Origin: Mobula hypostoma
Taxonomy: Eukaryota
DNA: 64,000 nt
Assembly: GCF_963921235.1 (NCBI RefSeq)
Contig: NC_086097.1
Location: 25,236,001-25,300,000 of the forward strand
Direction of reading: 5' to 3'
This document shows, in pieces, positions 1 to 64,000 of the stretch. The position numbers were made by a program, and so were the translations under genes. The notes under the pieces are model-generated. The model had not been told where the DNA came from, did not search any database, and saw nothing but the letters and a program-made list of their open reading frames with translations. The first letter of the stretch is position 1. Each line of letters opens with the position of its first letter.

Positions 1-102
1 AACCTTGAAGTGGATGGGCTACAGCAGTATAAAACCACAGACATACACTCAGTGGCCACTTAATTAGCTGCAGGGGGCACCTAATAAAGTGGCCATTGAG
101 TG
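1..102 (+). mobile_element. 3' end of a non-autonomous Tc1/mariner derivative ending in a TIR-TIR mini-hairpin
   Basis: ACCTTGAAGTGGATGGGCTACAGC (TLKWMGYS, Tc1 transposase HTH region), then TA-CACTCAGTGGCCACT (46-60) and the inverted copy AGTGGCCATTGAGTG ending at 102; same TIR at 30926 and 42288. Confidence 0.75.
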
Positions 103-831
103 CATAGTCCTTTACACAATTTGGGGAAGTCCCAATGGGCTCTGCAGGCCATTAAGTATTTCTATTAGAAGCGACATTACTGTTCTAATCCAGGCAACAC
201 AGCTAGTTTTGCTCAATGAATATTCCACAACAATAGCTCATTCACAAATATGCAAATTGCCATCAAACCACAATGGGGAAAAGGCAGAAAACTACAATGT
301 ATAGTCATGAATAACACAACAGGAAGCTAAAACAACTTCATTCAAATTATCTGTCAAATACTCTGCACTGAGTCATAGCTCCTCTGTATAGGTATAGCCT
401 AGGATATGTATGAGTGTTTCAAACTCTGATTTCTGACAGTTTTCAGTGCAGGCAAACCATGGTCCAAACCAGCTTAGCTTTACTTCCCAGGATCAAAAAT
501 CTCTGTCAAATCTTAATAGCAGAGTACACAAAAGAAGACTCACTTCAGTTATACCACTAGTTTGCATTGTTGATTAAAATGTGAATGGCAAAATATATCC
601 CTAAGCCTATTATGCTGCTGACATAAAAAAGAATTGAAATACTACAGTGTAAGCATATCCTGTGGGGAGTACAAAATTAAAAAATTCATAAATAAAAGCT
701 AGTCACTAATTAAAGCATGTGCAAATTAGGAAAAACATCATCACTAGGAGCTTTGGGAATGTGGAACATACTTAAACGTAGGAATTGATGAGGTAATTGG
801 TGACCCTGCATAAAAGGGAGGGAGGAATGGA

Positions 832-2679: not shown

Positions 2680-2815
2680 ACAAACATAGATAATTCTGCA
2701 GATGCTGGAAATCCAAACAACACACACAAAATGTTGGAGGAACTCAGCAGACCAGGTAGCATCTATGGAAAAGGGTAAATGGTCGACGATTCGGGACGAG
2801 ACCCTTCTTCAAGAT
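2680..2815 (-). mobile_element. Penelope-like terminal fragment with degenerate hammerhead motif
   Basis: TCTGCAGATGCTGGAAATCC-AACAACACACACAAAATG...GTCGACGATTCGGGACGAGACCCTTCTTCAAGA. Confidence 0.7.
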
Positions 2816-4140: not shown

Positions 4141-4789
4141 TTACTATTTTACCACTTACCAGTGAAAAGTCAAACACATATCAATGATGAGAAGCCTAGG
4201 AGAATCATAAAATGATCACACCTATTTCACTAATTGGAGGATATACAGTAATTATTTATGTTTGGACGGAGGAACTGAGAAAAGGGAATGGCGTTTTTCT
4301 GGGAAGGACAGTCTCTTGCTCACTTTTACTTGCAATAATGTCTTAGCAATTGTAATCCTTTCAGTAGTTGTCCTTTGGAGTTTTCTTAGTTGCTGTCCCA
4401 ATATGGCTTCCTCTACATCGGGGGAGCACTTTATTGAGCATATTCACTCTATCCGCCGCGAAAGGCAGGATGTACCATCTCAATTCAACTTCCAATTCAC
4501 ATTCTGACATGTCTGTCCATGGACCTCCACTGTCATAATGAGGCCAAACACAGGCTGGAGGAGCAACACCTCATATTGTCTAGGTAGCTTTCAACCCAAT
4601 GCATTAACATCAATTTCTTTCACCTCCAGTAATTGTCTTTCTCCTTCTCTCTTTTTCTTTTCCCCCATTCTAGTTACCCTCTCACTCGCTCTCTTTTCCT
4701 CACCTGTGCATTGCCTCCCTCTAGTTCCCCTCCTCCCCTTTCTTCCATGGCCGATTGTGTTCTCCTATCCTCACAAAACTCCTATGGAT

Positions 4790-5325
4790 TACCCTTATCT
4801 AAGAAAGCATGTGCTGGCTTTGGAGACTGCCCAGAGGAGGTTCACGGGAATGAACCCGGGAATGAAAAGATTATCGTCTGAGAAGTGTTTGCTGGCTCTG
4901 GTCCTGTACTCGTTGGAGTTTTAGAAAATTGAGCGGGGGGATCTCATTGAAACCTATCAAATATTGAAAGGTCTAGACTGAATTGACATGGAGAGGTTGT
5001 TTCCAATATTTGGGGAGTTTTGGACCTCAGGGCACAGCCTGAGAATACAAGAACATCTCTTTAGAACAGAGATGAGGAGGAATTTCTTTAACCAGAGGGC
5101 AGTGAATCTGTGAAATTCATTGTCACAAACAACTGTGGAGGCCAAGTCACTCGGTATATTTAAAACGGATGTTGACGGGTTCTTGATTAGTAAGAGCGTT
5201 GGAGATTATGGAGAGAAGGCAGGAGAATGGGGTTGAGAGGGATCATTAATCAGTCATAATAGAATGGCAGACCAGACTCAATGGGAAAAATGGCCTAATT
5301 CTGCACTTATGTCTTACGGTCTCAT
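4790..5325 (+). mobile_element. CR1 LINE 3' fragment
   Basis: PYLRKHVLALETAQRRFTGMNPGMKRLS...LYSLEF, then 3' UTR GGCCTAATTCTGCACTTATGTCTTACGGTCT. Confidence 0.85.
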
Positions 5326-5477
5326 CAGATATCTTGTTCAACCCTTTACTTCTTCCAACTATCCTCTCCCAATTTCTTACTTCATTCCGGCACCCTTGCC
5401 CACACACCTTCCCCCTCACCTGGCTTCACTTATCACCTATCAGCTTGTACTCCTTCCCTTTTCCCCACCTTATTATT

Positions 5478-5930
5478 CTAGAACATAGAAAGCTACAGCA
5501 CAATACTGGCCCTTCAGACCACAATATTGTGCCGACCATGTAACCTAATCTAGAAACTGCTTCAAATTTCCCTACCACATAGCCCTCTACTTTTCTAAGC
5601 TCCATCTACCTATCTTAGAGTCTCTTATAAGACCCTATTGTATCCACCTCTACCACCGTTGCTGGCAGTGTACTCCACGCTCCCAACACTCTGTGTTACC
5701 GCTGATATCCCCCCTGTATCTACTTCCAAGCACCTTAAAACTATGCCCACTTGTGTTAGCCATTTCAGCCCTGGGAAAGAGCCTCTGGCTATCCACACAA
5801 TCAAAGCTTCTCATCATCTTATACACCTTTATCAGGTCACCTCTCATCCTCCATTGCGCCAAGGAGAAAAGGCCAAGTTCACTCAACCGAATCTCATAAG
5901 GTATGCTCCCCAATCCAGGCAACATCCTTA
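5478..5930 (-). mobile_element. CR1 LINE 3' fragment
   Basis: ORF 5650-6216 segment RMLPGLGSIPYEIRLSELGLFSLAQWRMRGDLIKVYK; tail AGAACATAGAAA. Confidence 0.85.
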
Positions 5931-7164
5931 CTCTGGTTTCTTCTCCCTTCCTTTCTAGTCCCAATGAAGGGTCTTGGCTTGAAGTGTCACCTGTTAATTC
6001 CTTTCGTACAGGCTGCCTGACCTGCAGAATTTTTCCAGCATTTTGTATGTTACTCTGACAAAGCAAGTACACTGTTCTCACTAGGACAGCAAGTTTTCTG
6101 ATTCTATGCATAACTTTTAAAGCAAATGTTAATATTTTTCTACATTGAATATTTGATTCTATCAAAAGCCCGCAATTGCCTGGATTGGTATTCCAATCAA
6201 TTATTGAACACATCAATAATTAATCTGTCTGGTAAAGATCTTTGATCCGAAATATTGACTCTTAATTTCAAGAGGTGCTGCCTGATCTAATGAGTGTATC
6301 CAGCATTTTCTGTTCCTGCTAATGAACACAGAAAATCTCTCCATTCATCTCAAACTTCAACTACCAAAAAATAAGAGTTTGGAAGAAGAATCCACAGCTG
6401 CGTTTGGAAAACAGCACGGCTCCAAGCTGAAATGAAAATTGCTTTTCCCAACTATCTTCTCATAAGAAAAGGTGAGTTTTCAGTCCACTTTCCTGATGGG
6501 ACCGTATTTCCTCTGGCCATTGTCTAGATGCCGATTAGGTTATCTTAACTTTAGTTTTATTTGTCACATGTACTTTGGAACATTGAAACATATTCATTAT
6601 CTCACATTCTCATTATTAATTGCTATTTATTTATATTTGCAGTTGCACAGTTTGTCATCTTCTTCCCTCTGGTTGATCTTTCACTGACCCTGTTACAGTT
6701 ACTGTTCTATAGATTTGTCATGTATGCCACAGGAAATTGAATCTCAGGGTTGTATATGGTGACGTACATGTAGCTTGATAATAAATTTACTTTGAACTTT
6801 GAACATACAATGCCTGAAACATTGTCTCTTTATTCCTCTCCATAGATGTTGCCTGATCTGCTATATTCCTCTATCACTGTGCATGCTACTCTGGATTTCC
6901 AGCATCTGCAGAATCCCTTGTGCTTACAATGAAATGTACTGTTTTGCAACAAGTCAAATCAATGAGGATTGCGTTGAGGAGCCCACAAGTGTCATCAACC
7001 CATATGGAGGAAAGCCACGCAGTCAAGATGAGAACATACAAACTCCTTACACACAGTGGCAGGAACTGAATCCCAATCTTACTTCTGGCTCTGTGAAGTG
7101 TTGCGCTGCCTTGACACTACCTTGCAAATGGTAATTGGTGTACTATTGTCATATGTACCAAGAT

Positions 7165-7402
7165 GGAGTGGCACGGTAGTGTAGTGGTTAGCACAACGCT
7201 TTACAGTACCAGTGACCCAGGTTCAATTCCTGCCACGGCCTGTAAGGAGCTTGTACGTTCTCCCCATGGCCACATGGCTTCTTCCGAGTGCTCCAGTTTC
7301 ATCCTAGAGTCCAAAAATGTACCAACACCGGCCAGTGGGTTAATTAGCTATTGCAAATTGTCCCGTGATTAGGCTAGGATTAAATTGCGGGATTGTTCGG
7401 CA
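7165..7402 (+). mobile_element. tRNA-headed V-SINE
   Basis: GGCACGGTAGTGTAGTGGTTAGC (A box), GGTTCAATTCC (B box), V-domain-like core. Confidence 0.8.
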
Positions 7403-10117: not shown

Positions 10118-10495
10118 CAACGCCTACAAAATGCTGAAGGAACTAAGTCAGGCAGTATCTTTGGAGAGGAATAAACAGTCAATATTTTGGGCCAAGACTC
10201 TTCATCAGGACTCAAAAAGAAGGGGGAGGGGAGGGGAGAGAGTACAAGGTGAGAGCAGGTGAGGGAGGGTGGGTGGGTGGGTGGGGGAGAAGGGTGAAGT
10301 AAGAAGCTGGGAGGTGATAAATGGAACACATTAAAGGCTGAAGAGGGAGGAACCAGATAGGAAAGGACAACCAAGAGAAAATTTGCAGACGCTGGAAATC
10401 TAGGCAACACACACAAAAAACTGGAGAAAATCAGCAGGCCAGGCAGCATCAATGGAAAAAAGTACAGTTGATGTTTCGGGGCGAGACCCTTCAGC
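10118..10495 (-). mobile_element. Two tandem Penelope-like terminal fragments
   Basis: Terminal motif at ~10120-10212 (hammerhead-like AGTCCTGATGAAGAGTCTTGGCCC on minus) and again at ~10370-10495. Confidence 0.7.
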
Positions 10496-10859
10496 TTTGT
10501 TATATATAATTCTTTATCCTTCATAATTGTTGAATGTTCTTTTTTTGCTCCACGTAGCGCCTTGACCAACACACCACAGCAAACTCCCAATACATGAAAA
10601 GGTATATGCTGAATAAAGTTGATCCTTGATCATTCTCCCCATAACCCCCAAGTTTTTACTGATTAAAAACCTATCCAGTTCTGATGAAAAGTCCTGTTTG
10701 TTTCTCTTTCCAAAGAAATTGCCTTACTAGTTTTGTTTCTATATTTTCTGATTTTATTTCCGATTTCCAGCATCTGTAGTGTTTTTTAGTTTGCAAAATC
10801 TGTCTCTCTCAGGTTTGTATATAACCAAGGACTCTGTCTTCACAGCTTTGTAATACCAT

Positions 10860-18400: not shown

Positions 18401-18601
18401 AATCCCAGCCATGATGGAATGGCAGAGCATACTCGATGGGCTGAGTGGCCTAATTCTGCTCCTACATCTTATGGTCTCACGGTCTAAGGTTTCTGTTAAT
18501 CAGAGCTGTGGAGTTTCTAGCGATTTTACATAAAAGCAGAGGAGGATTGGATAACTGGAGGACAAATACCAACCAGAAAACATAGAGCAGCTGTTTCATA
18601 G

Positions 18602-18853
18602 GGGAACACACACAAAAAATGCTAGTGAATGCAGCAGGCCAGGCAGCATCTATAGGAAGAGGTACAGTTGACTCTCCCTCCCACTTCCAAATTTCTTACT
18701 ATCTCTTCTTTCAGTTAGTCCTGATGAAGGGTCCTGACACAAAACGTCGACTGTACCTCTTCCTATAGATGCTGCCTGGCCTGCTGCGTTCACCAGCATT
18801 TTTTGTGTGTGTTGCTCGAATTTCCAGCATCTGCAGATTTCCTCGTGTTTGCT
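18602..18853 (+). mobile_element. Penelope-derived fold-back element
   Basis: ~68-bp arms 18605-18672 and 18746-18813 in inverted orientation; one-sided tail GAATTTCCAGCATCTGCAGATTTCC; possible TSD TTTCATAG at 18594-18601 and 18854-18861. Confidence 0.85.
18717..18752 (+). ncRNA. Minimal type I hammerhead ribozyme motif (degenerate copy)
   Basis: AGTC-CTGATGA-A-GGGTCCTGACAC-AAAA-CGTC-GACT: stem I AGTC/GACT and CUGAUGA intact, GAAA mutated to AAAA. Confidence 0.55.
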
Positions 18854-20744
18854 TTTCATAGAGGGATGCCATTGAGCTGTTGGAATCTACTTCCGCTCTG
18901 ATCCAGCTAACATCACGTCCCTGCTCTCTCCCCAGAATGTTGCAAATTCTTTCCTTTCAAAATCTTATCCAGCTCCCTTGTAAATGCGACAAATTATATG
19001 CATTTGGGTGGTATGCATCTACATTTGATAGTGGTAGAGGTAATTGAATTCGTCTCTACCACTATTGCAGACAGACAAATACCACTCAATGTTTTAAAAA
19101 ATTCTTATATTCTTATATTCATTTTTAACTCTTTTGGCAATCACCTTCATTGCCATCTGCCTAATTCTAACCTGTTGTTCAATGGGAACTGTTTCTCTTT
19201 AACCACTTGTCACTATCCTCTATGACTTTAAATATCTATCAGACCTCTGTGCAGTGATAGTAATTTCAATTGTGTAGGAATATCCTTCTTAAACATTCAT
19301 AAATACACCTTAAAGGCATTGTAATTTTATTATTCTGCTCATATAAACTCACTGTAATAGATTTTCCGATTTAGCAAATTACATACATTCTTCCACAATC
19401 TAACAGCCAAATGCAATCAAAAACCTTTATCTCAGACAGAATAGGCTGCAATGTCCAGTATTCTTAAAGTAAAAAGATTAATTTACCATTTTCTTTTGCA
19501 GTTTACCATAAATTATATTTTAGAAACAAAATTGGTTGCCCTATGTTACACAGCAATCAGGAGAAAGAAATATCTCCAAAAAAAAACCCCGTATCAACAA
19601 TGGATTTACTGGCACAGTAGTACTTATGAAGGCTGCCAGATATAAATGTTCCCTGGCCTAAATGATACATTGAACATTTTCTTCTCTAAGCAGGTGATCT
19701 ACAAAGCAGGCTCCATTTTTTTTCCCAGAAGCAAAATTGCATTAAGCAAAAGCTAACAGTGCATGGCAGCAAGAACCAATGAGTACACTAAAACAACAGC
19801 AAGCACAAAGATAAGATTCAGTAAATTCTAAGATATTTCTTTCTGCAAATAAATTTGTTACAAGCTAATTTAATTTAGGGGAGTATCTGAGTAGTGGCAG
19901 GAATGTAACTCCTCTCAGTGCATAAAGTACATTGAGGTATCCTTTGATTGAAACACAACGATTTTCTTTTAATTACCTGTTGGTACATAAAGCCAATGAA
20001 ACCACTTAAGAGGATTTGCTGAGATTGTAATTACAGAGGAAGCTTACAGCCAGCAATATGATAAAATGATTCTATTTACGGGAGCTGAGGAATTAAAGCC
20101 AAGCTTTGTGTGATCAACATTTCTTACTATTTCATGCCAAGTGAATGAGCCGGTCAAACAAACGACTGGAAACAATAAGAGACCATGTCGACTGCATAAG
20201 GGGCATAGTCTTAACACATAGACTGCATAAGGGGATAGAATCCACAGTCTTTTTTCCAAGGAAAGGGAGTCAAAATCTAGAGGGCATAGGTTTAAAAGAT
20301 GAGAGGAAAAAGACTTATAAGAGAGCTGAGGGGCGAATTCCAAACACAGTGGTTATTTGGAATAAGCTGCCAGAGAACATGGTTGACGTGGGTATAATAA
20401 CAACATTTAAAAGACACTTAGGTACCTGGATATAAAGACTCAGACTCAGAGAGATATAAGCCAAATGCAGGCAAATGGGGACGGGCATAAATGAGAACAT
20501 GGACAAGTTGGGCCTAAAGGCTTGTTCTCCAACTGTATTACTCTATGATTTTAAAGTCACCATCGTCAGCATTCTCACTTCAGACCCTCAAACAAGTCCA
20601 TTCCTCTTCACAACCACTGTCTAAGACTGAACTAGTCTGTTTACAGCATCAATATTTCATTGATTGTGAACTGATCTGGCCACACATTTGGTCATCACAA
20701 AAGACAGTTATTTTTACTTCTTTTTGTAAGAGATTAAGATTGGC

Positions 20745-21556: not shown

Positions 21557-23078
21557 ATAGAAACATAGAAAATAGGTGCAGGAGTAGGCCATTCGGCCTT
21601 TCGAGCCTGCACCGCCATTTATTATGATCATGGCTGATCATCCAACTCAGAACCCTGTACCTGCCTTCCCTCCATACCCCCTGATCCCTTTAGCCACAAG
21701 GGCCATATCTAACTCCCTCTTAAATATAGCCAATGAACTGGCCTCAACTGTTTCCTGTGGCAGAGAATTCCACAGATTCACCACTCTCTGTGTGAAGAAG
21801 TTTTTCCTAATCTCGGTCCTAAAAGGCTTCCCCTTTATCCTCAAACTGTGACCCCTCGTTCTGGACTTCCCCAACATCAGGAACAATCTTCCTGCATCTA
21901 GCCTGTCCAATCCCTTTAGGATCTTATACGTTTCAATCAGATCCCCTCTCAATCTTCTAAATTCCAACGAGTACAAGCCCAGTTCATCCAGTCTTTCTTC
22001 ATATGAAAGTCCTGCCATCCCAGGAATCAATCTGGTGAACCTTCTCTGCACTCCCTCTAAGGCAAGGATGTCTTTCCTTAGATTAGGGGACCAAAACTGC
22101 ACACAATACTCCAGGTGTGGTCTCACCAAGGCCTTGTACAACTGCAGTAGTACCTCCCTGCTCCTGTACTCGAATCCTCTCGCTATAAATGCCAGCATAC
22201 CATTCGCCTTTTTCACCGCCTGCTGTACCTGCATGCCCACTTTCAATGACTGGTGTATAATGACACCCAGGTCTCGTTGCACCTCCCCTTTTCCTAATCG
22301 GCCACCGTTCAGATAATAATCTGTTTTCCTATTTTTGCCACCAAAATGGATAACTTCACATTTATCCACATTAAATTGCATCTGCCATGAATTTGCCCAC
22401 TCACCCAACCTATCCAAGTCACCCTGCATCCTCTTAGCATCCTCCTCACAGCTAACACTGCCACCCAGCTTCGTGTCATCCGCAAACTTGGAGATGCTGC
22501 ATTTAATTCCCTCATCCAAGTCATTAATATATATTGTAAACAACTGGGGTCCCAGCACTGAGCCTTGCGGTACCCCACTAGTCACCGCCTACCATTCTGA
22601 AAAGGTCCCGTTTATTCCCACTCTTTGCTTCCTGTCTGCTAACCAATTCTCCACCCACACCAATACCTTACCCCTAATACCATGTGCTTTAAGTTTGCAC
22701 ACTAATCTCCTGTGTGGGACCTTGTCAAAAGCCTTTTGAAAATCCAAATATACCACATCCACTGGTTCTCCCCTATCCACTCTACTAGTTACATCCTCAA
22801 AAAATTCTATGAGATTCGTCAGACATGATTTTCCTTTCACAAATCCATGCTGACTTTGTCCGATCATTTCACCGCTTTCCAAATGTGCTGTTATCACATC
22901 CTTGATAACTGACTCCAGCAGTTTCCCCACCACCGACGTTAGGCTAACCGGTCTATAATTCCCCAGTTTCTCTCTCCCTCCTTTTTTAAAATGTGGAGTT
23001 ACATTAGCCACCCTCCAATCCTCAGGAACTAGTCCAGAATCTAACGGGTTTTGAAAAATTATCACTAATGCATCCACC
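21557..23078 (-). mobile_element. Young 5'-truncated CR1 LINE (RT domain, one in-frame stop)
   Basis: ORFs 22589-23080 and 21647-22585 lie in the same frame, separated by one TAG; motifs NYRPVSLTS, YLDFQKAFDKV, GVPQGSVLGP, FADD; tail ATAGAAACATAGAAA. Confidence 0.95.
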
Positions 23079-32449: not shown

Positions 32450-33315
32450 AACAGGCAGGGTTTCCTGGTGGCCAAATATTTTAATTCTGCTCTCCATTGC
32501 ACTCTGAAATGTCAGTCCATAGCCTCATCCACTGCCTTGATGAGGCCACTCTAATGTTGGAGGAGCAACAGCTCATATTGCATCAGGGTGACCTCCAATC
32601 TGACAGAATGAACATCGATTTCTCTAACACCAGTAATTTCTGCCCCCCCGCCCCCCACCACCCAACTCTCTCTTTCTTCACTTCCCATTCTGACTCCTCT
32701 CCTACCCATTTTCTTCTCTTCATCTGCCCATCACCTCCCTCTACTCCTCTTTCCCTTTCTCCCATGGGCCATTCTCCTCTATCAGATTCCTTCTTCGTCA
32801 GCCCTTTATTTTTTCCCACCTATCATCTCCCAGATTCTCACTTCATCATCTCTTCCCCAACCACTTAACTTCCCCCTAACCTGGCTTCACCTATCACCTG
32901 TTTATTCAACTCTGCACTGAATAATGGGACTCTTTCGCAGACTTCAGTTTAGAAACACTATGCTGCTTGTGATTACTGTTTGCATTATTTTTTTCAGTGC
33001 ACATTGTGTTAGAAGGTCTTTATATTATTTATACACACACACACACACACATATAGATTTTGAAGGGTGCCTTTGCTTCGTGGTTGCCTGTTAGAATATG
33101 AATCTCAGGTTGTATAATGTATACAAATGTTGATAATAAATGTACTTTGAACCTGTCAGCTTAAACACTTTTCCCTCCTCCCATCTTCTAATTCTAGCTT
33201 CTGTCCCCTTCCTTTTCTGTCCTGATGAACAGTCTCAGCCAAACATCAACTGGTTATTCCTCTCCAGAGATGCTGCCTGACCTGCTGAGTTGCTCCAGCA
33301 TTTGGTGTGTGTTAC
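32450..33315 (+). mobile_element. Penelope-like 3' fragment interrupted by a SINE-like tail (~32900-33150)
   Basis: ORF 32497 HSEMSVHSLIHCLDEATLMLEEQQLILHQGDLQSDRMNIDFSN (GIY-YIG C-terminus); CCTGATGAACAGTCTCAGCCAAAC at 33220. Confidence 0.8.
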
Positions 33316-35479
33316 CATAAGGAAAGCGAACAAAATAGAAATCATTTATCTTAAATGGCCTAATTCTGCTCCTAGGTATTATGGTTTTGCGTTCTCATGA
33401 ATGTTACAACAACCATAGTGGGATCTCAACTCAGGGCCCCAGATTAATCTATCTATACCTCTTATCGTCTTTAAACCTCTATCAAGTCACCTCTCCTCCT
33501 CCTTCACGCCAAAGAGAAAAGCTCCAGCTCACTCAACCTATCCTCATTAGACATGGTCTCTAATTTAGGGAGAGTGCCAGTAAATCTCCTCTTTAAAGCT
33601 TCCACATCCTTCCAATAATGAAGGGACCAGAACTGAACACAATACTCCAAGTGTGGTCTAAACAGAGTTTTAAAAAGCTGCAACATTACCTTAAGGCTTT
33701 TGAACCCTATCATTAGTACAATACCATATTACCATTGACCCAACACTGACAAGGGATACAAACCTTTTTAAAAATGTAAAAATGTGTCTGTTGATATTGA
33801 AATAATTTATAATAAATTAAAATCCACAAAGTTATAGGCTCTATGAACTGAAGACTAAAGTCCAGAAGATTGTTATAAGGAACAAGCCAGTTGCAAAGGC
33901 AATAAAAAAAACCCTGTAAAATGTAATACTGCAGTTTCTAAATTAAATTATATAATTAATGATGATAAGTGATTATAATTAGGTTGTAATTGTGTCCAAC
34001 AATGTGGAAAATTACCCAGGTATGCCCCATCAGTCTACACTGATTCAGCAGGTGATAAAAGGTGTCAAGAGCAGCACCCTTAAAAGGAATTCATCCACCA
34101 AGAACTGTTCTCCAACCCCCGGTTTGGGTTTTCCTGAACTGCTCTGCACAGTGCTTGTCCAAAAGTAGTTTCCTGAGGTGTATGTGACAGGCTGCCTTGA
34201 GCATCCAGGCAGCATTTGATAATGTGAGGCCTAAAGGAGCCCTGGGCAAACTGAGGTTTATGAAAACTGAAGGGGACAATGTCCACTTACAAAGGAAGGC
34301 AGATGATGCTGTTATTGATCAATCATTATCAGTGCCCAGGACAATGGTTTAAGTACAGATTCAGATTCATTTATTTATCATGAGTATATTGAAACATACT
34401 GTGAAATATATTATTTGCATTAACAACCAACACAATCTAACATTGTGATGAGGCAGCCCCAGGACAACAGCCTTCAGCAGACTCACAAATTCATAGACAT
34501 TGGGCCTTCAACTCCATCTGACTCACAGAGACTTACAGACCCAGGCTTCCACAGACTTCGATCTTCAGTATGGACCTCAGGACTCGCTAATGACAATGAA
34601 TGAGGACCCCAATCACTAGACTGCTTCATTAATGACTTTCCATTATGACCACTGATGTTTGCACATCATTCAAATTCAACTGCAAACTCCAAGAAAATAA
34701 GGTACTCCATGCTTGCAAGCAACAAGACCAGAGAATATTCAGGCAGGAACTAATCAGTAGTAAGTAGTATTCACTCCAAATGCTCTCGTCATTCAGCTTC
34801 CAGTGATTAGGTGGGGATGTAGGAGAGATAACGCTAGCCAAAAAAAATTTTTTAAATCAACCCTATTGATCTAGTGGGCAGCCAGAGACTTTTTACCAGG
34901 GTGGAAATGGCTCGTGTAGGGGTGCATAATTTAAGGTGATTTGAGGAAAGTATAGGGTGTATGTCAGAGATAGGTTTTTTTGCAGAGAGAGTGGTGGGTA
35001 TGTGTAACACACTGCCAGAGATGGAAGTAAACGCAGATATATTAGGGCCATTTCAGAGACTCTTAGATAGGACAAGGAAGAAAAACAAATGGAGGGATGT
35101 GTGAGAGTGAAGAGTTAGATTGATCATAGAGTAGTTTAAAAGGTTGGCGCATCTTGTGGGCTGAAGGACCTGTACTGTACTATGTTGATTTGGACCAGTT
35201 AGGTAAATACCGGGCTGAAAGAGCGAGTCAGGGACGGGTATCCAGCAGTGTGAGTGACTAACCTTGTGACACCCCAAAGCCTTTCCACCATTCAGGCGCA
35301 AGTCAGACGTATGATGGAACGGTCTCCACTTAGCTGAGTGGGTAGAGCCCAGTAGCCTTCAAGAGGCTCCAGCACAGACCTGAACACCTACTGCAGGTGG
35401 CAACTAAACCCCTCCTATACTCCTTTGATTAGTGGAACACTGGATCCACTGCATTGAGTCTACAAGTACACAGTGGAGA

Positions 35480-35715
35480 CTAAACAAACATGAAGTTGCT
35501 GGAAATCCAAGCAACACACACAAAATGCCGGAAAAACTCAGCAGGCCAGGCAGCATCTATGGAAATGGGTGAATAGACCTTTCGGGCCAAGACCCTTCAT
35601 CAAGACTCCTGTATCAGTCTCCTGAAGAAAGGTCTCGGCCTGAAACATCGACTTGTTTACTCATTCCCATTGTTGCTGTCTGGCCTGCTGAGTTCCTCCA
35701 GCATTTTGTGTGTGT
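35480..35715 (-). mobile_element. Penelope-derived fold-back element with 11-bp TSD
   Basis: Inverted arms ~35514-35607 and ~35617-35715; TSD CACAGTGGAGA at 35469-35479 and 35716-35726. Confidence 0.85.
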
Positions 35716-36540
35716 CACAGTGGAGAGTATCCTAACTGGTTGTGTCATGCCCTGGTATGGAAATACCAATACACAGGAACGGAAGTGTGATGGATACAGC
35801 CCAGTCCATCACAGACAAATCCAATGTGTACATTTACATTGAGCACTGTCACAAGAAATTAGAATGCATCAAGGTCCCCCGCCATCTAGGCCATGCCATC
35901 TTCTCACCACAACCATCGGGCAGGAAAAACAAAAGCCTTAGGGCCCACACCACCAGGTTCTGAAACGGTTATTACCCGTAAACTTGACCCACCTCAAGAC
36001 TGAACTGATTGCATAACCTATGGACTCACCTTCAAGAACTCCACAACTCATGTTCTCAGTGTTTATTTATTTGCAGTTTGACATCTTTTGCATATTGGTT
36101 GTTTGTCAGTCTTTGTTTATGTAAGTTTTTTTGTAGATACTATTGCATTTCTATGTTTTTCCCTGAATGCCGGCATGAAAATGATTCTCAAGGTAATATA
36201 TAATGACATATACATACTTTGATAATAAATTTGCTTTAAACTAAACTTTGAATACTGAACTGATTCCAAAACCTGTGGACTCACTTTCAAGAACTCTACA
36301 ACTCGTCCTCAAAATTATTTAGTACTGATTGATTTATTATTATTATCTGTTTTATTATATTTACACATTTTGTCTTCTGCACAGTGGTTGTTTGTTCATC
36401 TTTGTGCGAAGTTTTTCACTGATTCCATTGTATTTCTTTATATCTACTATGAATGCCCACAAGAAAATGAATCTCAGAGTAGTGTATGGTAGCATATAGA
36501 ATACGTACTTTGACTTCAAATTTATTTTTATCTATGAACT
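35716..36540 (+). mobile_element. Rex1/Babar-type 3' fragment with two tandem 3' UTR tails
   Basis: VESILTGC, SGRKNKSLRAHTTRF; UTR starting ACTGAACTGATT at ~35999 and again at ~36254. Confidence 0.75.
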
Positions 36541-39500: not shown

Positions 39501-40546
39501 ACAGGGGCATGAGGGAGGAGCGTGCAAACATTGATTAGAAAGGGACACTAACAGGGCAGAACAGCCATACTTGGAGCTTTTGGAAGCAATATGGAAAGCT
39601 ACTTCTTCCTCCCAAAGAGGAAGTAGTATTCTAAAGACAGGATGATGCAACCATGGTTGACTAGGAAAGTCAAAGACAGCATAAAAGGAAAAGAGAGGGC
39701 ATATAATACAGCAAAAGTTAGTGGATTGGAAAGCTTTTAAAAAAACAACAGAAGGCAAATAAAAAAGCCATAAAGAGAGAAAAGATGAAATATGAAGGTA
39801 AGCTAGCCAATAATATAAAATAGGATACCAAAAGAATTTTCAGATATAAAAAGAGTAAAAGAGAAGCACTGGAAAATGTCACTAGTGAGGTAGAAATCAA
39901 GGACCAAGAAATGAAAGATCAACTGAATAAGTATTTTGCATCATTCTTCACTGTGGAAGACACAAGAAGTACACCAGAAATTCAAGAGTGTCAGGGACCA
40001 GAAGTGAGTGTAGTTGCAATTAACAAGGAGAAGGTGCTTGGAAAGTTGAAAGGTCTGAAGGTTGATGACTCACCTGGACCAGATGGACTACACCTCAGGG
40101 GTTTGAAAGAGATAGCTGAAGAGATTATGGAGGCACTAGTAATGATCTCTCAGGGATCACTAGATTCTGGAATGGAGAACTGGAAAATTGAAAATGTCAT
40201 TCCGCTCTTTAAGAAGGTAGAGAGGCAGAAAAAAGGAAACTATAGGCCATTTAGCCTGACGTCAGTGATTGGGAATATGTTGGAGTCCGTTATTAAGAAG
40301 GAGGTTTCGGGGTACTTCGATGCACATGGTAAAAAAGGCCAACGTCTGCATGGTTTCCTTAAGGGGAAATCTTGCTTGACAAATCTGCTTGAATTCTTTG
40401 AGGAAATAACAAGCAGAACAGACAAAGCAGAGTCAGTGGATATTGCTTACTTGAAGTCAGAAGGTCTATGACAAGGGGGCGCACATGAGGCTGCTTAATA
40501 AGATAAGAGTCCATTGTATTACAGAAAGATACTAGTGTGGATAGAA

Positions 40547-40764
40547 GCAACACACATAAAAGTTGCTGGTGAACGCAGCAGGCCAGGCAGCATCTCTAGG
40601 AAGAGGTACAGTCGAGACCCTTCGTCAGATTAGTCCTGACGAAGGGTCTCGGCCCGAAATGTCGCTTGTACCTCTTCCTAGAGATGCTGCCTGGCCTGCT
40701 GCGTTCACCAGCAACTTTTACGTGTGTTGCTTAAAATTCCAGCATCTGCAGATTTCCTTGTGTG
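40547..40764 (+). mobile_element. Penelope-derived fold-back element inside CR1, with TSD
   Basis: Arms 40547-40628 and ~40636-40730; TSD AG(TG/CA)TGGATAGAA at 40534-40546 and 40765-40777; one-sided tail. Confidence 0.9.
40632..40667 (+). ncRNA. Minimal hammerhead ribozyme motif (core intact, stem I partly decayed)
   Basis: AGTC-CTGACGA-A-GGGTCTCGGCCC-GAAA-TGTC-GCTT: CUGANGA and GAAA boxes, GGG/CCC stem II, GUC cleavage triplet. Confidence 0.6.
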
Positions 40765-42015
40765 AGCATGGATAGAAAATTGGCTGACTGGCAGGAGGCT
40801 AAGAGTGGAAATAAAGGGGGCCTTTTCTGGCTGGCTGCTAGTGACTAGTGGTTTGCTGCAGGGGTCAATGTTGGGACAGCTTCTTTTCATCTTATATGTC
40901 AATAATTTGGATGATGGAATTGATAGATTTGTGGTGAAGTTTGGAGATGATAGGAAGATATATTGGAGGGGCAGGGAGTGTTGAGGGAACAGGAACTCTG
41001 CAGAAGGACTTCATTTGGAAGAATGGGCACAGAAGTGACAGATGAAATATAGTATTTGGAGGCATATGGTCATGCACTTTGGTAGAAGGAATAAAGGCAT
41101 AGATTATTTTCTAAATGGGGAGAAAATTGAAAACAAAATCAGGTGCAAAGGGACTTAGGAGTCCACGCGCAGGATTCTGTAAAGGTTAACTTGCAGGTTG
41201 TGTTGGTGGTAAGGAAGGCAAATGCAGTGTTAACATTCAATTCAAGGGAACTAGAATATGAAAGCAAGGATGTAATACTGAGGCTTTATAAGGCATTGGT
41301 GAGGCTTCATGGAGTATTGTGAGCAATTTTGGGCCTCTTATCTAAAATGTGTTGGCATTGGAAAGCGTCTACAGGAGGTTCACAAGAATGATTCTGGAAT
41401 GAAAGGGTTAATGTATAACAAGTGTTTAATGGCTCTGTGCTTGTAATCACTGCAGTTTAGAAGATTGAGGGGAGATATCATTGAAACTTATCGAATATGC
41501 CTAGATTGAGTGGATGTGGAGAGGATGTTTCCTATAAATGGTGAGTTCAGGGCCAGAGAGCTCAGTCTCAGAATAGAACAGAGTTGAGAAGAAATTCATT
41601 GCCACAGACAGCTGTGGAGGCCAAGTCATTGGAGTGTATTTAAAGCAGAAGTTGATAGGTTCTTGAATAGTTGGGACGTCAAAAGGTTACAGGGAGCATG
41701 CAGAAGAATGGTGTTGAGTGAGATAATAAATCAACCATGATGGAATGGTCTGAATGACCTAATTCTGCTCCTAGGTATTATGGTCTTAACAATCTACTGA
41801 AGGAACACAGCATGTCCAGCAGCAGGAAAGGTATCAAATCAAAGCTCTCACTCTGACTCTTTTCCTCCATTAGGTTGTTCATTGCTCCAGACCTGAGAAC
41901 CTGCAGTGTCCTGTGTCTCTGTCAGTACTCATAAATTCATCGAAATATGCAGCACTGGAGATAGCCATTCATCCTACTGACTCCATACAAGCTGAAAGAA
42001 AGGGCCATCTAATCT

Positions 42016-42239
42016 AAGCAACACACATAAAAGTTGCTGGTGAATGCAGCAGGCCAGGCAGCATCTCTAGGGAGAGGTGCAGTCGACGTTTCAGGCCGAG
42101 ACCCTTCGTCACGAAGGGTCTCGGCCTGAAACATCGACTGCACCTCTTCCTAGAGATGCTGCCTGGCCTGCTGTGTTCACCAGCAACTTTTATGTGTGTT
42201 GCTTGAATTTCCAGCATCTGCAGAATTCCTGTTGTTTGC
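42016..42239 (+). mobile_element. Penelope-derived near-perfect palindrome with 16-bp TSD
   Basis: ~94-bp arms around position 42110 (about 4 mismatches, 1-nt spacer), tail 42205-42239; TSD GCCATCTAATCTAAGC at 42004-42019 and 42238-42253. Confidence 0.95.
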
Positions 42240-42287
42240 CATCTAATCTAAGCCATATCTCAGCTTGTGTTTTGGTCTTCAAATACA

Positions 42288-42373
42288 CACTCAGTGGCCA
42301 CTTTATTAGGTACACCGCACACATTCTCATTAATGCAAAAATAGGAGGTACTTAATGAAGAAGCCACTGAGTG
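42288..42373. mobile_element. 86-bp Tc1-derived MITE
   Basis: CACTCAGTGGCCACTTTATTAGGTAC ... GTACTTAATGAAGAAGCCACTGAGTG-TA. Confidence 0.8.
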
Positions 42374-42584
42374 TATTTTTCAGCAACTCTTCTCTAATCC
42401 TTATGGAAATTACTGTGAATTAGTATCCCCTGGTGATTGTCAGCTCTTCCAAAGAAAGAAGGTGCTTCTTACCTATTTTATATGTGCCTCCCATGATTTT
42501 ATAAACCTCAGTTTAATTTTCTGTCAACTTTTGCTGTTCCAAAGAAATCCATCCTAGGTTCTGGTAATGTGTTCATAAGCCTTC

Positions 42585-43664: not shown

Positions 43665-43879
43665 AGACTCAAGAGAGACTGCAATGCTGGGTGTCTAGAG
43701 CAACACACACAAAATGCTGGAGGAAATTGGTAGGTCAGACAGCATCTATGAAAGGAAATGAACAGTTGATATTTGGCCCAAGACAATTCAACAAGATAAG
43801 TGAAGGTTTTTGACCCAAATATGTCATCTGTTCATTTCCCTCTGTAGATGCTGCATGTTCTGCTAAGTTCCTCCAGCAT

Positions 43880-43890
<11 letters not shown>
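43665..43890 (-). mobile_element. Older Penelope-derived fold-back element
   Basis: CAACACACACAAAATGCTGGAGGAA ... TTCCTCCAGCATTGTGCGTGTGT inverted arms meeting at ~43795. Confidence 0.75.

Positions 43891-43915
<25 letters not shown>
43881..43915. repeat. (GT)n microsatellite
   Basis: GT run expanded from the TGTGTGT end of the Penelope arm. Confidence 0.95.
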
Positions 43916-45005: not shown

Positions 45006-47119
45006 ATGAAAGTTTCAGAGTACCAAAAACTAAGCCTAACCCAAGCATTAGGAGAGGTGTAAAAAGTTAGTCAAAAAGCAAGGTTTAAACCATCTGCTGA
45101 AATGGAGAAACAGCTGGAGAGGTTTGGGAAAGTACTTCTGTAGATTAGGGCCTAGAGAGCCGAAAGTGAAAAAAACATTGGGAGATGCCTTGAAATTAAC
45201 TTCAATCTCCAAACCATCAGTTAGAGTAACTGGATTATTAATGTTTTTTTAATAAAATGAAAGTTGGGAGATGCATTCTATTGTATTTTTTTAAATGCCT
45301 GCAAGAAAATGAATATCAAGGTAGTATTTAGTAACATATACTGTACATCTTTGGATAATAAATTTACTTCAACTTTGAAGTCATAAACTCCGTTTACACA
45401 CTTGAAATGACACTTATTAAACATTTAAACAATTTGATGCACAGAAAAGGAAATAATAATGCAAATTTAAGGCACGATTCTATCATTGTATCAGAATATT
45501 TTTTACATTAGGCTGTGTTTTATGGATAAAGGACAGGAACTGAGATCCATTTGAGGAATCTGATAAATCTTATTAGGAAATGTTTAGTGAATAGTTTAGA
45601 TACAGGATTAAGACTCATTTCTACTGAGAAAAACATTTCAGATAAGGTCAGAATTTTCATTTCTACGACCTTACTGCTTTTAACATAAGCAATACAATTC
45701 TAAATTAGATGGATAAAACAACTGAAAAGTTATGCAGTTGAAGTTCCATGAACGAGAATTAAAACTAGACCAGAAAACACCACAATATTAAAAATATATA
45801 TTTGCCCTGAACCAACTACTTCGAACTTTCAACACTCTCTGTGCCTCCTTGACAACCTACATTTGACTAACAATCTGTCCCAAGGTCTTCCACTGAGATG
45901 GAAGCTAATCATAACTCATTCCTTTGTAAACCACCATTAATTCCTGAATAGTGCATTATGTATTGATACTGATGAGATCAAAACAAAGTTATCTCTGCCC
46001 CTCACAACTTAATTGCAGAACAGCAGGAAATTTATGCATTAAAGCCTGCTGATATTAAAGGGGAGACACTTTCAATGATTAGTCCAGTAAAATAATGTCC
46101 TACATTGAAATCACTGCAATTTCCTAATAGCAAGAAAACATCTTTTGACCTTCCTGTTCTTATAGTTCTACCCACTATCTTTAAAATAAGGGATGGGCCA
46201 AATGGCCTAATTCTGCTCCTATGTTTTATGGTCTTACAGAAATTTATGCAATAGATTGATATGCTTTGAACTTTCCATGAACAACACATTGTTCTCCAAT
46301 CTTATTCACTCAGATTGTGCTTTCTTGTGCCCTTCATTCCTGAATTAATTATTTTACATTTGTCTATTTTAAATTGCTCTTTGCAATTACCTAAAAAAGA
46401 TTGAATTTAATTGCACTGCTCCTTAATAATTGCTTTAATTGTTTTGTATTGTCACTAAGTTACATTTACCATATCCTTGTCATGATTAAAAATATCATGT
46501 TCCTAAGATTTACTTTCTGGAGGATATTTATTCATAAATATATCAAATTACACTTCTTCATTCCCTTACCGCTTCCACCTATCACCTATCCTACCTTCAT
46601 ACATCTTACCTCCCTCTCCCATCACTTGGTCTTACTTATCATCTGCTAGCTTGACTCCTTGCCCTATCCCTACCTTCTTATTCTGCCCTTTCCTTTCCAG
46701 TCCTGGAAAAGGGTCTCAGCCCAAAATGTTACAGTAGCAGAGCTTTACACCACCAGCAATCAAAGTTCAATTCCCACTGCTGTCTGTAAGGAGTTTGTAC
46801 GTTCTCCCTATGACCATGTGGATTGTCTCCAGGTGTTCTGGTTTCCTCCCACATACAGGTAGTAAGTTGTGGGGATACTATGTAGGCATTTGTGGATTGT
46901 TCTAAACTGAAGTTTATTTCCCTTCTTACATTTAAGCCAATATTCTTCCCAACTGCAAATCTCACTTACAATAACAAAATTATTAGCCCCCATCCATATA
47001 TTACTAGGTTGGAAACCTTGGAAAGATCTTCCTACATATCAGCTGCTTATTTCCAGCCTCTGTAGTGCTAGATTATCATGAAACATTACTGTTACTACTG
47101 CCTCATAAGCAACTTGGAT

Positions 47120-52320: not shown

Positions 52321-52446
52321 ACATCTCATTGAAACCTACCAAATATTGAAAGGCCTAGATAGAATGGGCCTGCAGAAGATGTTTCGTGTAGTGGGAGCTG
52401 GATGTGAGGGGATGTAGCTGATGTGACCTAGTCTGATGGAGGGGTC

Positions 52447-52773
52447 CCTGATGGTATGAGTAAATGGCATGTCCTGCGTTGTAGGGGTCCTTAATGATGG
52501 ATGCTGCCTTTTTGAGGCATCACCTTTTGAAGATGTCCTCAATGGTAGGGAGGCTTTTGCCCATGATGGAACTGGCTGAGCTCAGAGTTTACTTTGAACT
52601 GCACAGGACTGGAAAAGGCTGCATGCAGTAGGTTGTAAACTCAACCAATTCTATCATGGGCAAAAGCCTCCATACCATTGAGGACATCTTCAAAAAGTGA
52701 TGCGTCAAAAGGCAGCATCCATCATCAAAGACCTCCACTACGCAGGACATGACTTTTCCTCGTACCATACAGG
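52447..52773. repeat. Inverted pair of Rex1-type fragments
   Basis: Arms 52447-52580 and 52640-52773 are reverse complements with high similarity. Confidence 0.85.
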
Positions 52774-52814
52774 AGCCCAAAGACCCACACTCGTTGGTTA
52801 AGAACAATAGTTAC

Positions 52815-62385: not shown

Positions 62386-64000
62386 AACTGGCAGAGAACA
62401 TAAAAACTGACTGTAAAAGCTTTTATAGACATGTGAAAAGAACAAGATTGGTTAAGACAAATGTAGATCCCCTACAGACAGAAACAAGTGAATTGATTAT
62501 GGGGAGCAAGGACATGGCAGACCAATTGAATAATTACTTTGGTTCTGTCTTCACTAAGGAGGACATAAATAATCTTCCAGAAATAGTAGGGGACAGAGGG
62601 TCCAATGAGATGAAGGAACTGAGCGAAATACATGTTAGTAGGGAAGTGGTGTTAGGTAAATTGAAGGGATTAAAGGCAGATAAATCCCCAGGGCCAGATG
62701 GTCTGCATCCCAGAGTGCTTAAGGAAGTAGCCCAAGAAATAGTGGATGCATTAGTGATAATTTTTCAAAACTCTTTAGATTCTGGACTAGTTCCTGAGGA
62801 TTGGAGGGTGGCTAATGTAACCCCACTTTTTAAAAAAGGAGGGAGAGAGAAACCGGAGAATTATAGACCGGTTAGCCTAACATCGGTGGTGGGGAAAATG
62901 CTAGAGTCAGTTATCAAAGATGCGATAACAGCACATTTGGAAAGCAGTGAAATCATTGGACAAAGTCAGCATGGATTTGTGAAAAGAAAATCATGTCTGA
63001 CGAATCTCATAGAATTTTTTGAGGATGTAACTGGTAGAGTGGATAGGGGAGAACCAGTGGATGTGGTATATTTGGATTTTCAAAAGGCTTTTGACAAGGT
63101 CCCTCACAGGAGATTAGTGTGCAAACTTAAAGCGCATGGTATTGGGGGTAAGGGATTGTTGTGGATAGAGAATTGGTTGGCGGACAGGAAGCAAAGAGTG
63201 GGAATAAACGGGACCTTTACAGAATGGCACGCAGTGACTAGTGGGGTACCGCAAGGCTCAGTGCTGGGACCCCAGTTGTTTACAATATATATTAATGACT
63301 TAGATGAGGGAATTAAATGCAGCATCTCCAAGTTTGCGGATGACACGAAGCTGGGCGGCAGTGTTAGCTGTGAGGAGGATGCTAAGAGGATGCAGGGTGA
63401 CTTGGATAGGTTTGGTGAATGGGCAAGTTCATGGCAGATGCAATGTAATGTGAATAAATGTGAGGTTATCCACTTTGGTGGCAAAAACAGGAAAACAGAT
63501 TATTAACGCAAACAACAGGAATTCTGCAGATGCTGGAAATTCAAAACAGATTATTATCTGAATTGTGGCCGATTAGGAAAAGGGGAGGTGCAACGAGACC
63601 TGGGTGTCATTATACACCAGTCATTGAAAGTGGGCATGCAGGTACAGCAGGCGGTGAAAAAGGCGAATGGTATGCTGGCATTCATAGCAAGAGGATTCCA
63701 GTACAGGAGTAGGGAGGTACTACTGCAGTTGTACAAGGCCTTGGTGAGACCACACCTGGAGTATTGTGTGCAGTTTTGGTCCCCTAATCTGAGGAAAGAC
63801 ATTCTTGCCATAGAGGGAGTACAAAGAAGATTCACCAGATTGATTCCTGGGATGGCAGGACTTTCATATGATGAAACACTGGATCAACTAGGCTTATACT
63901 CGTTGGAATTTAGAAGACTGAGGGGGGGATCTTATTGAAACGTATAAAATCCTAAGGGAATTGGACAGGCTAGATGCAGGAAGATTGTTCCCGATGTTGG
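62386..64000 (+). mobile_element. Young CR1 LINE ORF2 (RT), runs off the window
   Basis: ORF 62433-63506 (357 aa) and 63588-63938, near-identical in protein to the 21557-23078 copy; frame broken by the insertion at 63506. Confidence 0.95.
63506..63542 (-). mobile_element. 37-bp Penelope tail-only insertion with 14-bp TSD
   Basis: ACGCAAACAACAGGAATTCTGCAGATGCTGGAAATTC between two AAAACAGATTATTA copies (63492-63505, 63543-63556); its reverse complement matches 42205-42239. Confidence 0.9.

What the first reader, a model, noticed from the sequence alone, without database searches (positions are those of the whole stretch)
42004..42253. Family of TSD-flanked fold-back Penelope elements that fold at the hammerhead ribozyme
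Seen: five independent 210-250 bp insertions (18602, 35480, 40547, 42016, 43665) share one design, two inverted copies of the Penelope terminal repeat with a ~37-nt tail on one arm only. Four have direct flanking repeats of 8-16 bp. The fold centre differs in every copy but stays at the hammerhead motif. At 42110 it is inside the CTGACGA core (TTCGT-C-ACGAA). At 40630, 35610 and 43795 it is within about 10 nt 5' of the core. At 18672 the left arm ends at the GTC cleavage triplet. Known: Penelope-like elements carry minimal hammerheads and form inverted pseudo-LTRs with a short tail. Inference: different junctions argue against one MITE master copy. Each palindrome may be made anew at insertion from a short RNA whose end is set by the ribozyme, through template switching or fold-back priming.
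Basis: partly seen in the sequence, partly recalled or inferred. Interest (0 to 1): 0.7.

Follow-up and report, generated by a model that had tools for sequence, protein, structure and literature searches.

The report
Short two-armed Penelope retroelement insertions
These hairpin-shaped inserts are very short copies of a Penelope-type jumping gene in a known head-to-head layout; their turning points gather about 25-40 bases upstream of where the ribozyme would cut, so they more likely record two copying starts that stop at one spot than a ribozyme-trimmed RNA.

Summary
The five palindromes are real. Four have 8-16 bp target duplications, and each has a ~37-nt tail on one arm. This layout is published for Penelope-like elements (PLEs). 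The turns do cluster, but not at the hammerhead cut: 9 of 10 palindrome arms run 24-76 nt upstream of the scissile bond, into sequence that a cleaved RNA lacks. Only 1 of 21 arms in the window ends at the cut. Tailed arms stop mostly at -24 to -39, solo copies included (7 of 11 within 15 nt, p about 0.002 against uniform; small n, post hoc). Best reading (0.55): both target nicks prime cDNA at the two internal RT start sites known for PLEs, both cDNAs stop at the 5' edge of the ribozyme, and short inverted matches join them. A tail-only insertion and tail-plus-inverted-arm joints in public contigs support this. cDNA fold-back is the main rival (0.25); a ribozyme-set end is unlikely (0.07). No genome was held, so the genome-wide breakpoint test remains undone. 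This scan noted the same family and reached a similar verdict on other DNA of this genome.

The parts
42004..42019 (+). Left target-site duplication (16 bp; its last 4 letters also match the element's tail-less end)
42016..42111 (-). Tail-less arm of the 42016 copy; 5' end at -27 relative to the predicted cut (inside the CTGACGA core)
42111..42239 (+). Tailed arm of the 42016 copy; 5' end at about -25; predicted cut after 42135; 37-nt tail 42203-42239; 1-nt overlap with the other arm
42238..42253 (+). Right target-site duplication
40547..40628 (-). Tail-less arm of the 40547 copy; 5' end at -28; internal 13-nt deletion between TCG repeats removes the 3' half of stem II through the cut site
40625..40764 (+). 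Tailed arm of the 40547 copy; junction TCAG / 7-nt loop / CTGA is the element's own short inverted repeat; core starts 40636; inserted in a CR1 LINE with duplication 40538-40546 / 40769-40777
18605..18672 (-). Tail-less arm of the 18602 copy; ends at GTC (-3 to 0, depending on junction microhomology)
18673..18852 (+). Tailed arm of the 18602 copy; 5' end at -76; pyrimidine tract plus CAG at 18690-18714, stem I 18717-18720, core from 18721, predicted cut after 18748; duplication 18594-18601 / 18854-18861
35480..35607 (-). Tailed arm of the older 35480 copy; 5' end at -32; duplication 35469-35479 / 35716-35726
35614..35715 (+). Tail-less arm of the 35480 copy; 5' end about -34 (aligner range -28 to -46), after a 6-nt filler
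43665..43804 (-). Tailed arm of the oldest copy; 5' end about -39 (range -27 to -45)
43801..43892 (+). Tail-less arm of the oldest copy; 5' end -24; end expanded into (TG)18; no duplication found
63506..63542 (-). Tail-only insertion (37 nt, identical to the 42016 tail over 37 of 37 letters) in a CR1 LINE with an exact 14-bp duplication
10118..10493 (-). Partial tandem of the same family: short tailed arm (5' end -24) directly upstream of a long tail-less arm
32485..33316 (+). Long tail-less copy: C-terminal piece of the GIY-YIG endonuclease frame (32485-32634), pyrimidine-rich 3' region (interrupted by another insert), hammerhead and repeat end
2681..2814 (-). Solo tailed arm, 5' end -30

Best explanation
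Each palindrome is one insertion of an endonuclease-positive Penelope-like retrotransposon (probably Neptune-like; clade not tested by a tree). Steps. (1) The element's RT-GIY-YIG protein nicks both target strands 8-16 bp apart. SHOWN here: the duplications. Shown in vitro for the anole PLE: both strands cut and extended. (2) One 3' end primes cDNA at the tail-end start site, the other at the repeat-end start site ~36 nt upstream, so only one arm has the tail. SHOWN: two fixed 3' ends. INFERRED: both used in one event, on one RNA or on two RNAs of one source. (3) Tail sequence follows the repeat only at the 5' repeat-ORF junction of the transcript, so tail-primed cDNA has about 140 nt of template before a stop zone at -24 to -39, at the 5' edge of the hammerhead. 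SHOWN in this window: the zone. INFERRED: its cause, most likely the RNA's 5' end or a block at the pyrimidine tract and putative splice acceptor, not ribozyme cleavage. (4) The two same-sense cDNA ends can only pair through inverted matches. They anneal at 1-5 nt matches such as TCAG/CTGA beside the core and are filled in, giving a head-to-head palindrome. INFERRED. The copies are dead-on-arrival relics.
For: Duplications in 4 of 5, with paralogous CR1 empty sites: flanks overlap at 63162-63169 for the 40547 copy and over 14 bp at 22314-22327 for the tail-only copy. Contigs of four public runs laid on one arm show long unrelated 3' flanks piling at 18851/18852/18856 (375/355/237 contigs in X1) and at 18816 (203 in X5): two fixed 3' ends about 36 nt apart. 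A TSD-flanked tail-only insertion stops at the second start site. Three of the 15 joints shown are opposite-strand; two of them (18717 to 18818 in X1 and X5; 18742 to 18818 in X5, side 34) read as a tail-only arm joined to an inverted tail-less arm, which fold-back of the tailed cDNA cannot make. At 42110 the tail-less arm reaches 1-2 nt beyond the tailed arm, with no foldable loop. The tail-less ends share 4, 2 and 0 letters with the target in the three young copies. Tailed-arm 5' ends: 7 of 11 within 15 nt, p = 0.0015; worst case with three weak hits added, 7 of 14, p = 0.01. Tailed arms cut to 60-80 nt would have been detected (9 of 10 and 10 of 10 at E < 0.05). PMC11167929: two RT start sites flank the tail, both strands are extended, a dimer is predicted, the hammerhead is dispensable.
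Against: The 40547 junction is exactly what intramolecular fold-back at TCAG/CTGA would give, and in 3 of 5 copies the tail-less arm lies within the span of the tailed arm, as fold-back requires. Both arms of each young copy share subfamily letters, which suits one template. One tailed arm (18673) passes the stop zone to -76. n is small, ends of old arms are uncertain by 5-10 nt, and the window width was chosen after seeing the data. The opposite-strand joints are 1-2 contigs each, their geometry is my reading of side lengths, and 19 of 34 joints and 856 loose-end rows were not shown. The cause of the stop zone is untested.
Confidence: 0.55

Rival explanations
1. cDNA fold-back (self-priming). 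One cDNA starts at the tail end, copies through the hammerhead, folds back at the element's own short inverted repeat (TCAG/CTGA, TTCA/TGAA) and copies itself until it is cut or joined at the repeat end.
For: The 40547 junction is a TCAG/CTGA stem with a 7-nt loop, and the 43795 junction is TTCA/TGAA with a 10-nt loop. The unbroken arm's antisense strand is predicted to form this hairpin. The arms share subfamily letters. Self-priming was proposed for palindromes at PLE inverted junctions, though on an antisense RNA template (PMC3846280, Discussion). Fold-back through short homologies is documented at yeast breaks (PMC11724301, abstract only).
Against: The native hairpin is weak: -3.8 kcal/mol, z = -0.46, 60 of 200 shuffles fold as well. 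42110 has no usable loop, and there and at 35610 the tail-less arm is the longer one. It does not explain tail-only insertions, tail-plus-inverted-arm joints, solo copies stopping in the same zone, or why the second arm ends at the known second RT start.
Confidence: 0.25
2. One reading: the ribozyme sets the end of a short RNA, and RT folds or switches template there, or jumps across a cleaved or circularised junction.
For: The 18672 arm ends at GTC. The 40547 left arm has a 13-nt deletion whose microhomology covers the cut, and the decayed 10675 arm has a similar one. One contig joint skips 18717-18748 and lands on the first base after the cut (X5, 1 contig). Circular templates were proposed in PMC4209133.
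Against: 20 of 21 scored arms extend past the cut, and the cluster lies 24-39 nt away from it. No 5' loose-end pile at 18749 and no indel at the cut among the rows shown (856 loose-end rows hidden, ranking rule unknown). For the anole PLE, hammerhead mutants leave insertion unchanged and no RNA-seq reads begin or end at the cut (PMC11167929). The cut site itself lies in a 6-bp palindrome, which could attract junctions without cleavage.
Confidence: 0.07
3. Post-insertion trimming: longer head-to-head insertions lost their centres by deletion, and short palindromes are the survivors that get assembled and noticed.
For: The 42110 junction can be derived from a 40547-type junction by a 12-nt central deletion (my inference). 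Long perfect palindromes are unstable (general knowledge, recalled).
Against: It does not predict one stop zone shared by solo tailed copies (2814, 10493, 10677). The young copies have nearly intact arms (3-4 differences in 68-94 nt, mostly CpG-type).
Confidence: 0.08
4. A palindromic master (MITE-like or SINE-like) is copied as a unit.
For: Similar overall size, 218-250 bp.
Against: Five different junctions and at least four sequence variants; duplications of 8-16 bp, not a fixed length; asymmetric ends; the same repeat occurs as solo, tandem and endonuclease-linked copies.
Confidence: 0.05

Closest known systems
Inverted insertions of EN+ Penelope-like elements (Craig et al. 2021, PMC8557442, passages; Arkhipova et al. 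2013, PMC3846280, passages and Discussion; Schostak et al. 2008, PMC2377424, passages)
   Same: An inverted 5'-truncated copy adjoining the 5' end, a 30-40 bp tail at one end only, 8-10 bp target duplications, a short overlap or palindrome at the inverted junction.
   Different: Here both arms are cut down to the terminal repeat, with no ORF between them. I found no statement of a fixed stop zone relative to the hammerhead in the passages read.
Poseidon from Anolis (PAc) in vitro (Frangieh et al. 2024, PMC11167929; parts 1-2 of 4 read, supplements searched)
   Same: Two internal RT start sites bracket the tail, about 85-92 nt downstream of the hammerhead cut; both target strands are nicked and extended; the hammerhead is not required.
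   Different: The parts read do not treat inverted products or how cDNA ends are joined.
Minimal hammerheads of metazoan PLEs (Cervera and De la Pena 2014, PMC4209133, parts 1-2 of 4)
   Same: Type I core, palindromic minimal helix III, one extra base before helix II. The paper already notes dual motifs 100-700 bp apart on opposite strands.
   Different: Here the pairs are closer and the junction often destroys one or both cores.
L1 twin priming (as described in PMC11702581, passages)
   Same: A second primer from the other target end, a preserved duplication, microhomology at junctions.
   Different: L1 arms are adjacent and barely overlap, and carry poly(A). Here the arms duplicate about 100 nt and start at fixed internal sites.
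Non-LTR retrozymes (bioRxiv 10.64898/2026.07.22.740005, part 1 of 5 and passages)
   Same: Non-coding, PLE-derived, hammerhead-bearing.
   Different: Retrozymes are direct tandem repeats with two or more complete ribozymes; these are dispersed inverted pairs.

Membership tests
EN+ Penelope-like element | C-terminal GIY-YIG endonuclease upstream of the terminal repeat | tested here: met
   32485-32634 hits 6 proteins at E <= 0.001. One has Pfam GIY-YIG at E 0.0013, below the curated cut-off. Another shows RT-like motifs, a Cys-rich linker and LYIGET by eye. Four of the six are chimeric gene models or carry no such family. The link to the repeat at 33219 crosses another insert.
EN+ Penelope-like element | Telomerase-related RT in the same ORF | not testable with these tools
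   No RT-bearing copy of this family was found in the window, and no genome is held.
EN+ Penelope-like element | Minimal type I hammerhead in the terminal repeat (sequence) | tested here: met
   Stem I AGTC/GACT, CTGANGA, stem II, GAAAC-GTC with palindromic ACGT; loose-end consensus in four runs. Rfam gave no hammerhead match; I did not check whether it holds a model of the minimal form.
EN+ Penelope-like element | Hammerhead self-cleavage | not testable with these tools
   Only contigs were available.
EN+ Penelope-like element | 30-40 bp tail at one end; two fixed 3' ends | tested here: met
   5 of 5 palindromes have one tail; 3' piles at 18816 and 18851-18856.
EN+ Penelope-like element | Tandem or inverted 5'-truncated copies with short variable target duplications | tested here: met
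Neptune clade | Zn-finger-like motif between RT and EN; phylogenetic placement | tested here: inconclusive
   A Cys motif is visible in database relatives; no tree was built.
MITE (non-autonomous DNA transposon) | Uniform copies, symmetric terminal inverted repeats, fixed-length duplication | tested here: not met
   Five junctions, one-sided tail, duplications of 8-16 bp.
Non-LTR retrozyme | Direct tandem units, each with a complete hammerhead | tested here: not met
   Inverted pairs with broken cores; no such array among the 6 tandem-repeat rows.
Twin-primed inversion (works-like comparison) | Second cDNA primed from the opposite target end, arms not overlapping | tested here: inconclusive
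   The five palindromes overlap fully. Non-overlapping tail-plus-inverted-arm joints appear in 4 contigs of two runs.

The most novel reading that the evidence does not exclude
PLEs integrate by obligatory twin priming from their two internal RT start sites, and in this family reverse transcription has a strong stop 24-39 nt upstream of the hammerhead cut, at a putative splice acceptor or transcript 5' end. That would explain inverted pseudo-LTRs, one-sided tails and tail-only insertions with one mechanism, and this very high-copy family would let it be read directly from junction statistics. A smaller side peak at the cut itself would be in-vivo evidence that a PLE ribozyme sometimes shapes the template.
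Probability: 0.35. Interest if true: 0.55.

Novelty: new member of a known kind. Interest (0 to 1): 0.27.

Why it matters
How PLEs make their inverted and tandem insertions is called undefined in PMC8557442, and PMC11167929 leaves the late steps open. A family this dense (21 arms plus two fragments in 64 kb; 60,334 contigs laid in one run, which is no copy number) could supply the junction statistics to decide between two-primer joining and fold-back, and to test whether the ribozyme ever sets the template end. The five copies themselves are dead relics with no sign of function.

Tried and rejected
No own genome is held, so the genome-wide breakpoint map could not be made. Pattern scans: viral contigs 0 matches; metagenome contigs 66 loci, none of this family (1 of 66 had a 44-nt chance-like match). 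Rfam at E <= 1: 6 hits, all microRNA models far below gathering score, matching only because the DNA is palindromic. Pfam on four window frames gave no GIY-YIG hit; a PDB sequence search with P0004 found nothing. The depth profile cannot serve as a truncation curve: contigs are short, and private changes in the reference (18732-18741, 18799-18800) create artificial dips and loose ends at 18742 and 18801. The first bin (18661-18667) had no cover, which proves nothing. No RNA holder was listed, and run X18 is only guessed to be RNA, so nothing is claimed on expression. RNA folding of 40626-40680 as a monomer did not give the hammerhead fold (z = 0.70), as expected for a motif thought to act as a dimer. 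Weak profile hits at E 0.06-10 were left out of the main count; the reversed window gave 3 hits at E 1.4-4, and a worst-case count includes three of the weak hits. The 3'-broken copy at 46699 was not scored. One search left out the tail-only copy; one search includes it. Literature: no paper held all terms (self-priming, hairpin, from 2014; cartilaginous fish, hammerhead); none listed held Penelope, pLTR and twin priming together; none listed held pLTR with fold-back. Lunse et al. 2017 is not held. Evgen'ev and Arkhipova 2005 and Arkhipova 2006 were not read and may already describe such short forms. Figures of the papers read (e.g. Fig. 2 of PMC3846280 and PMC8557442, Fig. S2 of PMC11167929) and bioRxiv supplements were not visible and may bear on junction positions.

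Full report
Observation. All five inverted pairs exist at the stated places, with arms 79-96% complementary. Four of five pairs have flanking direct repeats of 8-16 bp, with chance probability 0.001-0.011 against about 1500 random position pairs. The fifth ends in a (TG)18 run. Each pair has a tail on one arm only. The 40547 copy sits in a CR1 LINE. Its two flanks, aligned separately to an uninterrupted CR1 copy, overlap at 63162-63169, so the repeat was duplicated on insertion.

Identity. Profile searches find 21 arms of the family in the window: 10 in palindromes and 11 solo or tandem, plus a 3'-broken copy at 46699 and a tail-only copy. The arm at 10675 was added by eye and scores weakly when left out of the profile (E 0.006-0.05). 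Upstream of the long copy at 33219 lies a frame whose relatives include a protein with a weak Pfam GIY-YIG hit and one with RT-like motifs, a Cys-rich linker and LYIGET. The repeat carries a minimal type I hammerhead: stem I AGTC/GACT, core CTGANGA, stem II, and GAAAC-GTC with palindromic ACGT. This matches the motif described in PMC4209133. The predicted cut lies 28 nt downstream of the first core base.

Where the turns are. With the cut as 0, the 5' ends are: 42016 copy, -27 and -25; 40547 copy, -28 and -34 to -38; 35480 copy, -32 and about -34; 43665 copy, about -39 and -24; 18602 copy, -3 and -76 (old arms are uncertain by 5-10 nt). So 9 of 10 palindrome arms, and 20 of 21 scored arms, hold sequence upstream of the scissile bond, which the 3' cleavage product lacks. 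Solo tailed arms end at -30, -24, -35, -12 and -15. Among 11 tailed pieces (tail-only copy included), 7 end within 15 nt, p = 0.0015 against uniform on -80..+72. With three doubtful weak hits added it is 7 of 14, p = 0.01; for the five palindromes alone it is 4 of 5, p = 0.03. Tailed arms cut to 60 or 80 nt would have been found in 9 of 10 and 10 of 10 cases, so the gap between the tail and the ribozyme is not a detection artefact for copies of this age. The test is post hoc and small. The cluster is therefore probably real, but it lies at the 5' edge of the ribozyme, not at its cut.

Wider data. No genome is held, and the viral and metagenome scans gave no relatives. Contigs of four public runs were laid on the arm at 18661-18870 (60,334, 46,893, 21,045 and 3,223 laid). 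Long unrelated 3' flanks pile at 18851-18856 (tail end) and at 18816 (repeat end): two fixed 3' ends about 36 nt apart. No 5' pile at the cut (18749) is among the 24 loose-end rows shown, but 856 are hidden and the ranking rule is unknown. Of 15 joints shown (19 hidden), three change strand. Two of them join 18818 (side 34, which fits 18818-18852) to 18717 or to the reference's clip point 18742. I read these as a tail-only arm facing an inverted tail-less arm. The third joins 18726 (-23) to 18779. Fully overlapping palindromes are expected to collapse in such contigs (my inference), so their absence says nothing. One same-strand joint in one contig lands on the first base after the cut.

Mechanism. 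PMC11167929 shows for the anole PLE that both target strands are nicked and extended, that RT starts at two internal sites bracketing the tail, and that hammerhead mutants do not alter insertion. Putting this together with the anatomy (inference): each nick primes one cDNA, one from each start site, giving outward-facing 3' ends, one tail and a target duplication. The tail follows the repeat only at the 5' repeat-ORF junction of a transcript, so tail-primed cDNA has little template. This fits the window: 0 of 5 tailed solos but 5 of 6 tail-less solos reach -58 or further (Fisher p = 0.015, post hoc). The two cDNA ends are the same sense and can pair only through inverted matches. The junctions show such matches: TCAG/CTGA at 40625-40639, TTCA/TGAA at 43788-43805, and one base at 42111. 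The TSD-flanked tail-only insertion at 63506-63542, whose flanks overlap by 14 bp on another CR1 copy, is the product expected when the first cDNA stops at the second start. What sets the stop zone is open. A pyrimidine tract ending in CAG at -35/-31 looks like a splice acceptor, and in D. virilis the intron end maps to the 5' end of helix I (PMC4209133). A transcript 5' end or RT release on the U-rich tract would also fit.

Rivals. Fold-back of one cDNA gives the same junction at 40547 and suits the shared subfamily letters of the two arms. But the native hairpin is no better than shuffles (z = -0.46), 42110 has no loop, and tail-only forms are unexplained. The ribozyme model keeps three hints: the 18672 end, two internal deletions ending near the cut, and one contig joint. 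A circular template (proposed in PMC4209133) is not excluded by upstream sequence alone. Later central deletion could turn a 40547-type junction into the 42110 one. A MITE master is excluded by five junctions, variable duplications and asymmetric ends.

Known versus new. The layout is in print: an adjoining inverted 5'-truncated copy with a one-sided 30-40 bp tail (PMC8557442), inverted repeats with 8-10 bp duplications and palindromic junctions read as self-priming (PMC3846280), and opposite-strand hammerhead pairs (PMC4209133). I did not find a two-primer account of PLE inversions, or a stop zone relative to the ribozyme, in searches. Older reviews and all figures were out of view. Earlier notes of this scan describe the same family on other DNA of this genome, and one (e1-7809460) concludes that turns follow short inverted matches and not the cut.

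Verdict. This is a new member of a known kind; interest 0.27. Its value lies in making the PLE integration mechanism testable from junction statistics.

Noticed in passing
window 63506-63542 (-): A 37-nt insertion made of the tail alone, identical to the 42016 tail, with an exact 14-bp duplication inside a young CR1; another CR1 copy shows the empty site.
   Followed up: yes
window 10118-10493 (-) and 10675-10795 (+): A partial tandem (short tailed arm upstream of a long tail-less arm), and 180 nt away a decayed tailed arm facing the other way with an internal deletion across the cut site.
   Followed up: partly
window 40612-40628: The tail-less arm of the 40547 copy lacks 13 nt between two TCG words; the downstream edge overlaps the predicted cut. 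Could be slippage or a jump from a cleaved RNA end.
   Followed up: partly
window 18690-18720 and matching places of long copies: A pyrimidine tract ending in CAG directly before stem I looks like a 3' splice site; it coincides with the stop zone. Splicing was not tested.
   Followed up: no
solo copies at 831, 2692, 5956, 6265, 6839, 8700, 10118, 10358, 10675, 29622, 33219: Tailed solos are all short (0 of 5 reach -58); tail-less solos are mostly long (5 of 6).
   Followed up: partly
window 52437-52778: A ~340-bp palindrome (arms 82-86% complementary, 33-nt centre) of another repeat, with no match to this family's profile. It resembles LINE-type 3' coding pieces elsewhere in the window (resemblance by eye; label not tested).
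   Followed up: no
window 43-105 and 42281-42380: Two small palindromes with the same ~30-bp inverted ends, MITE-like; weak Rfam mir-9256 hits far below the gathering score.
   Followed up: no
window 7012-7280: An inverted pair of 59-nt arms (78%) from another dispersed repeat, 151 nt apart.
   Followed up: no
window 4400-6058 (+): A long copy of this family with endonuclease-like frames at 4400-4600, split by a CR1 insertion of about 1.1 kb before its hammerhead at 5964.
   Followed up: partly
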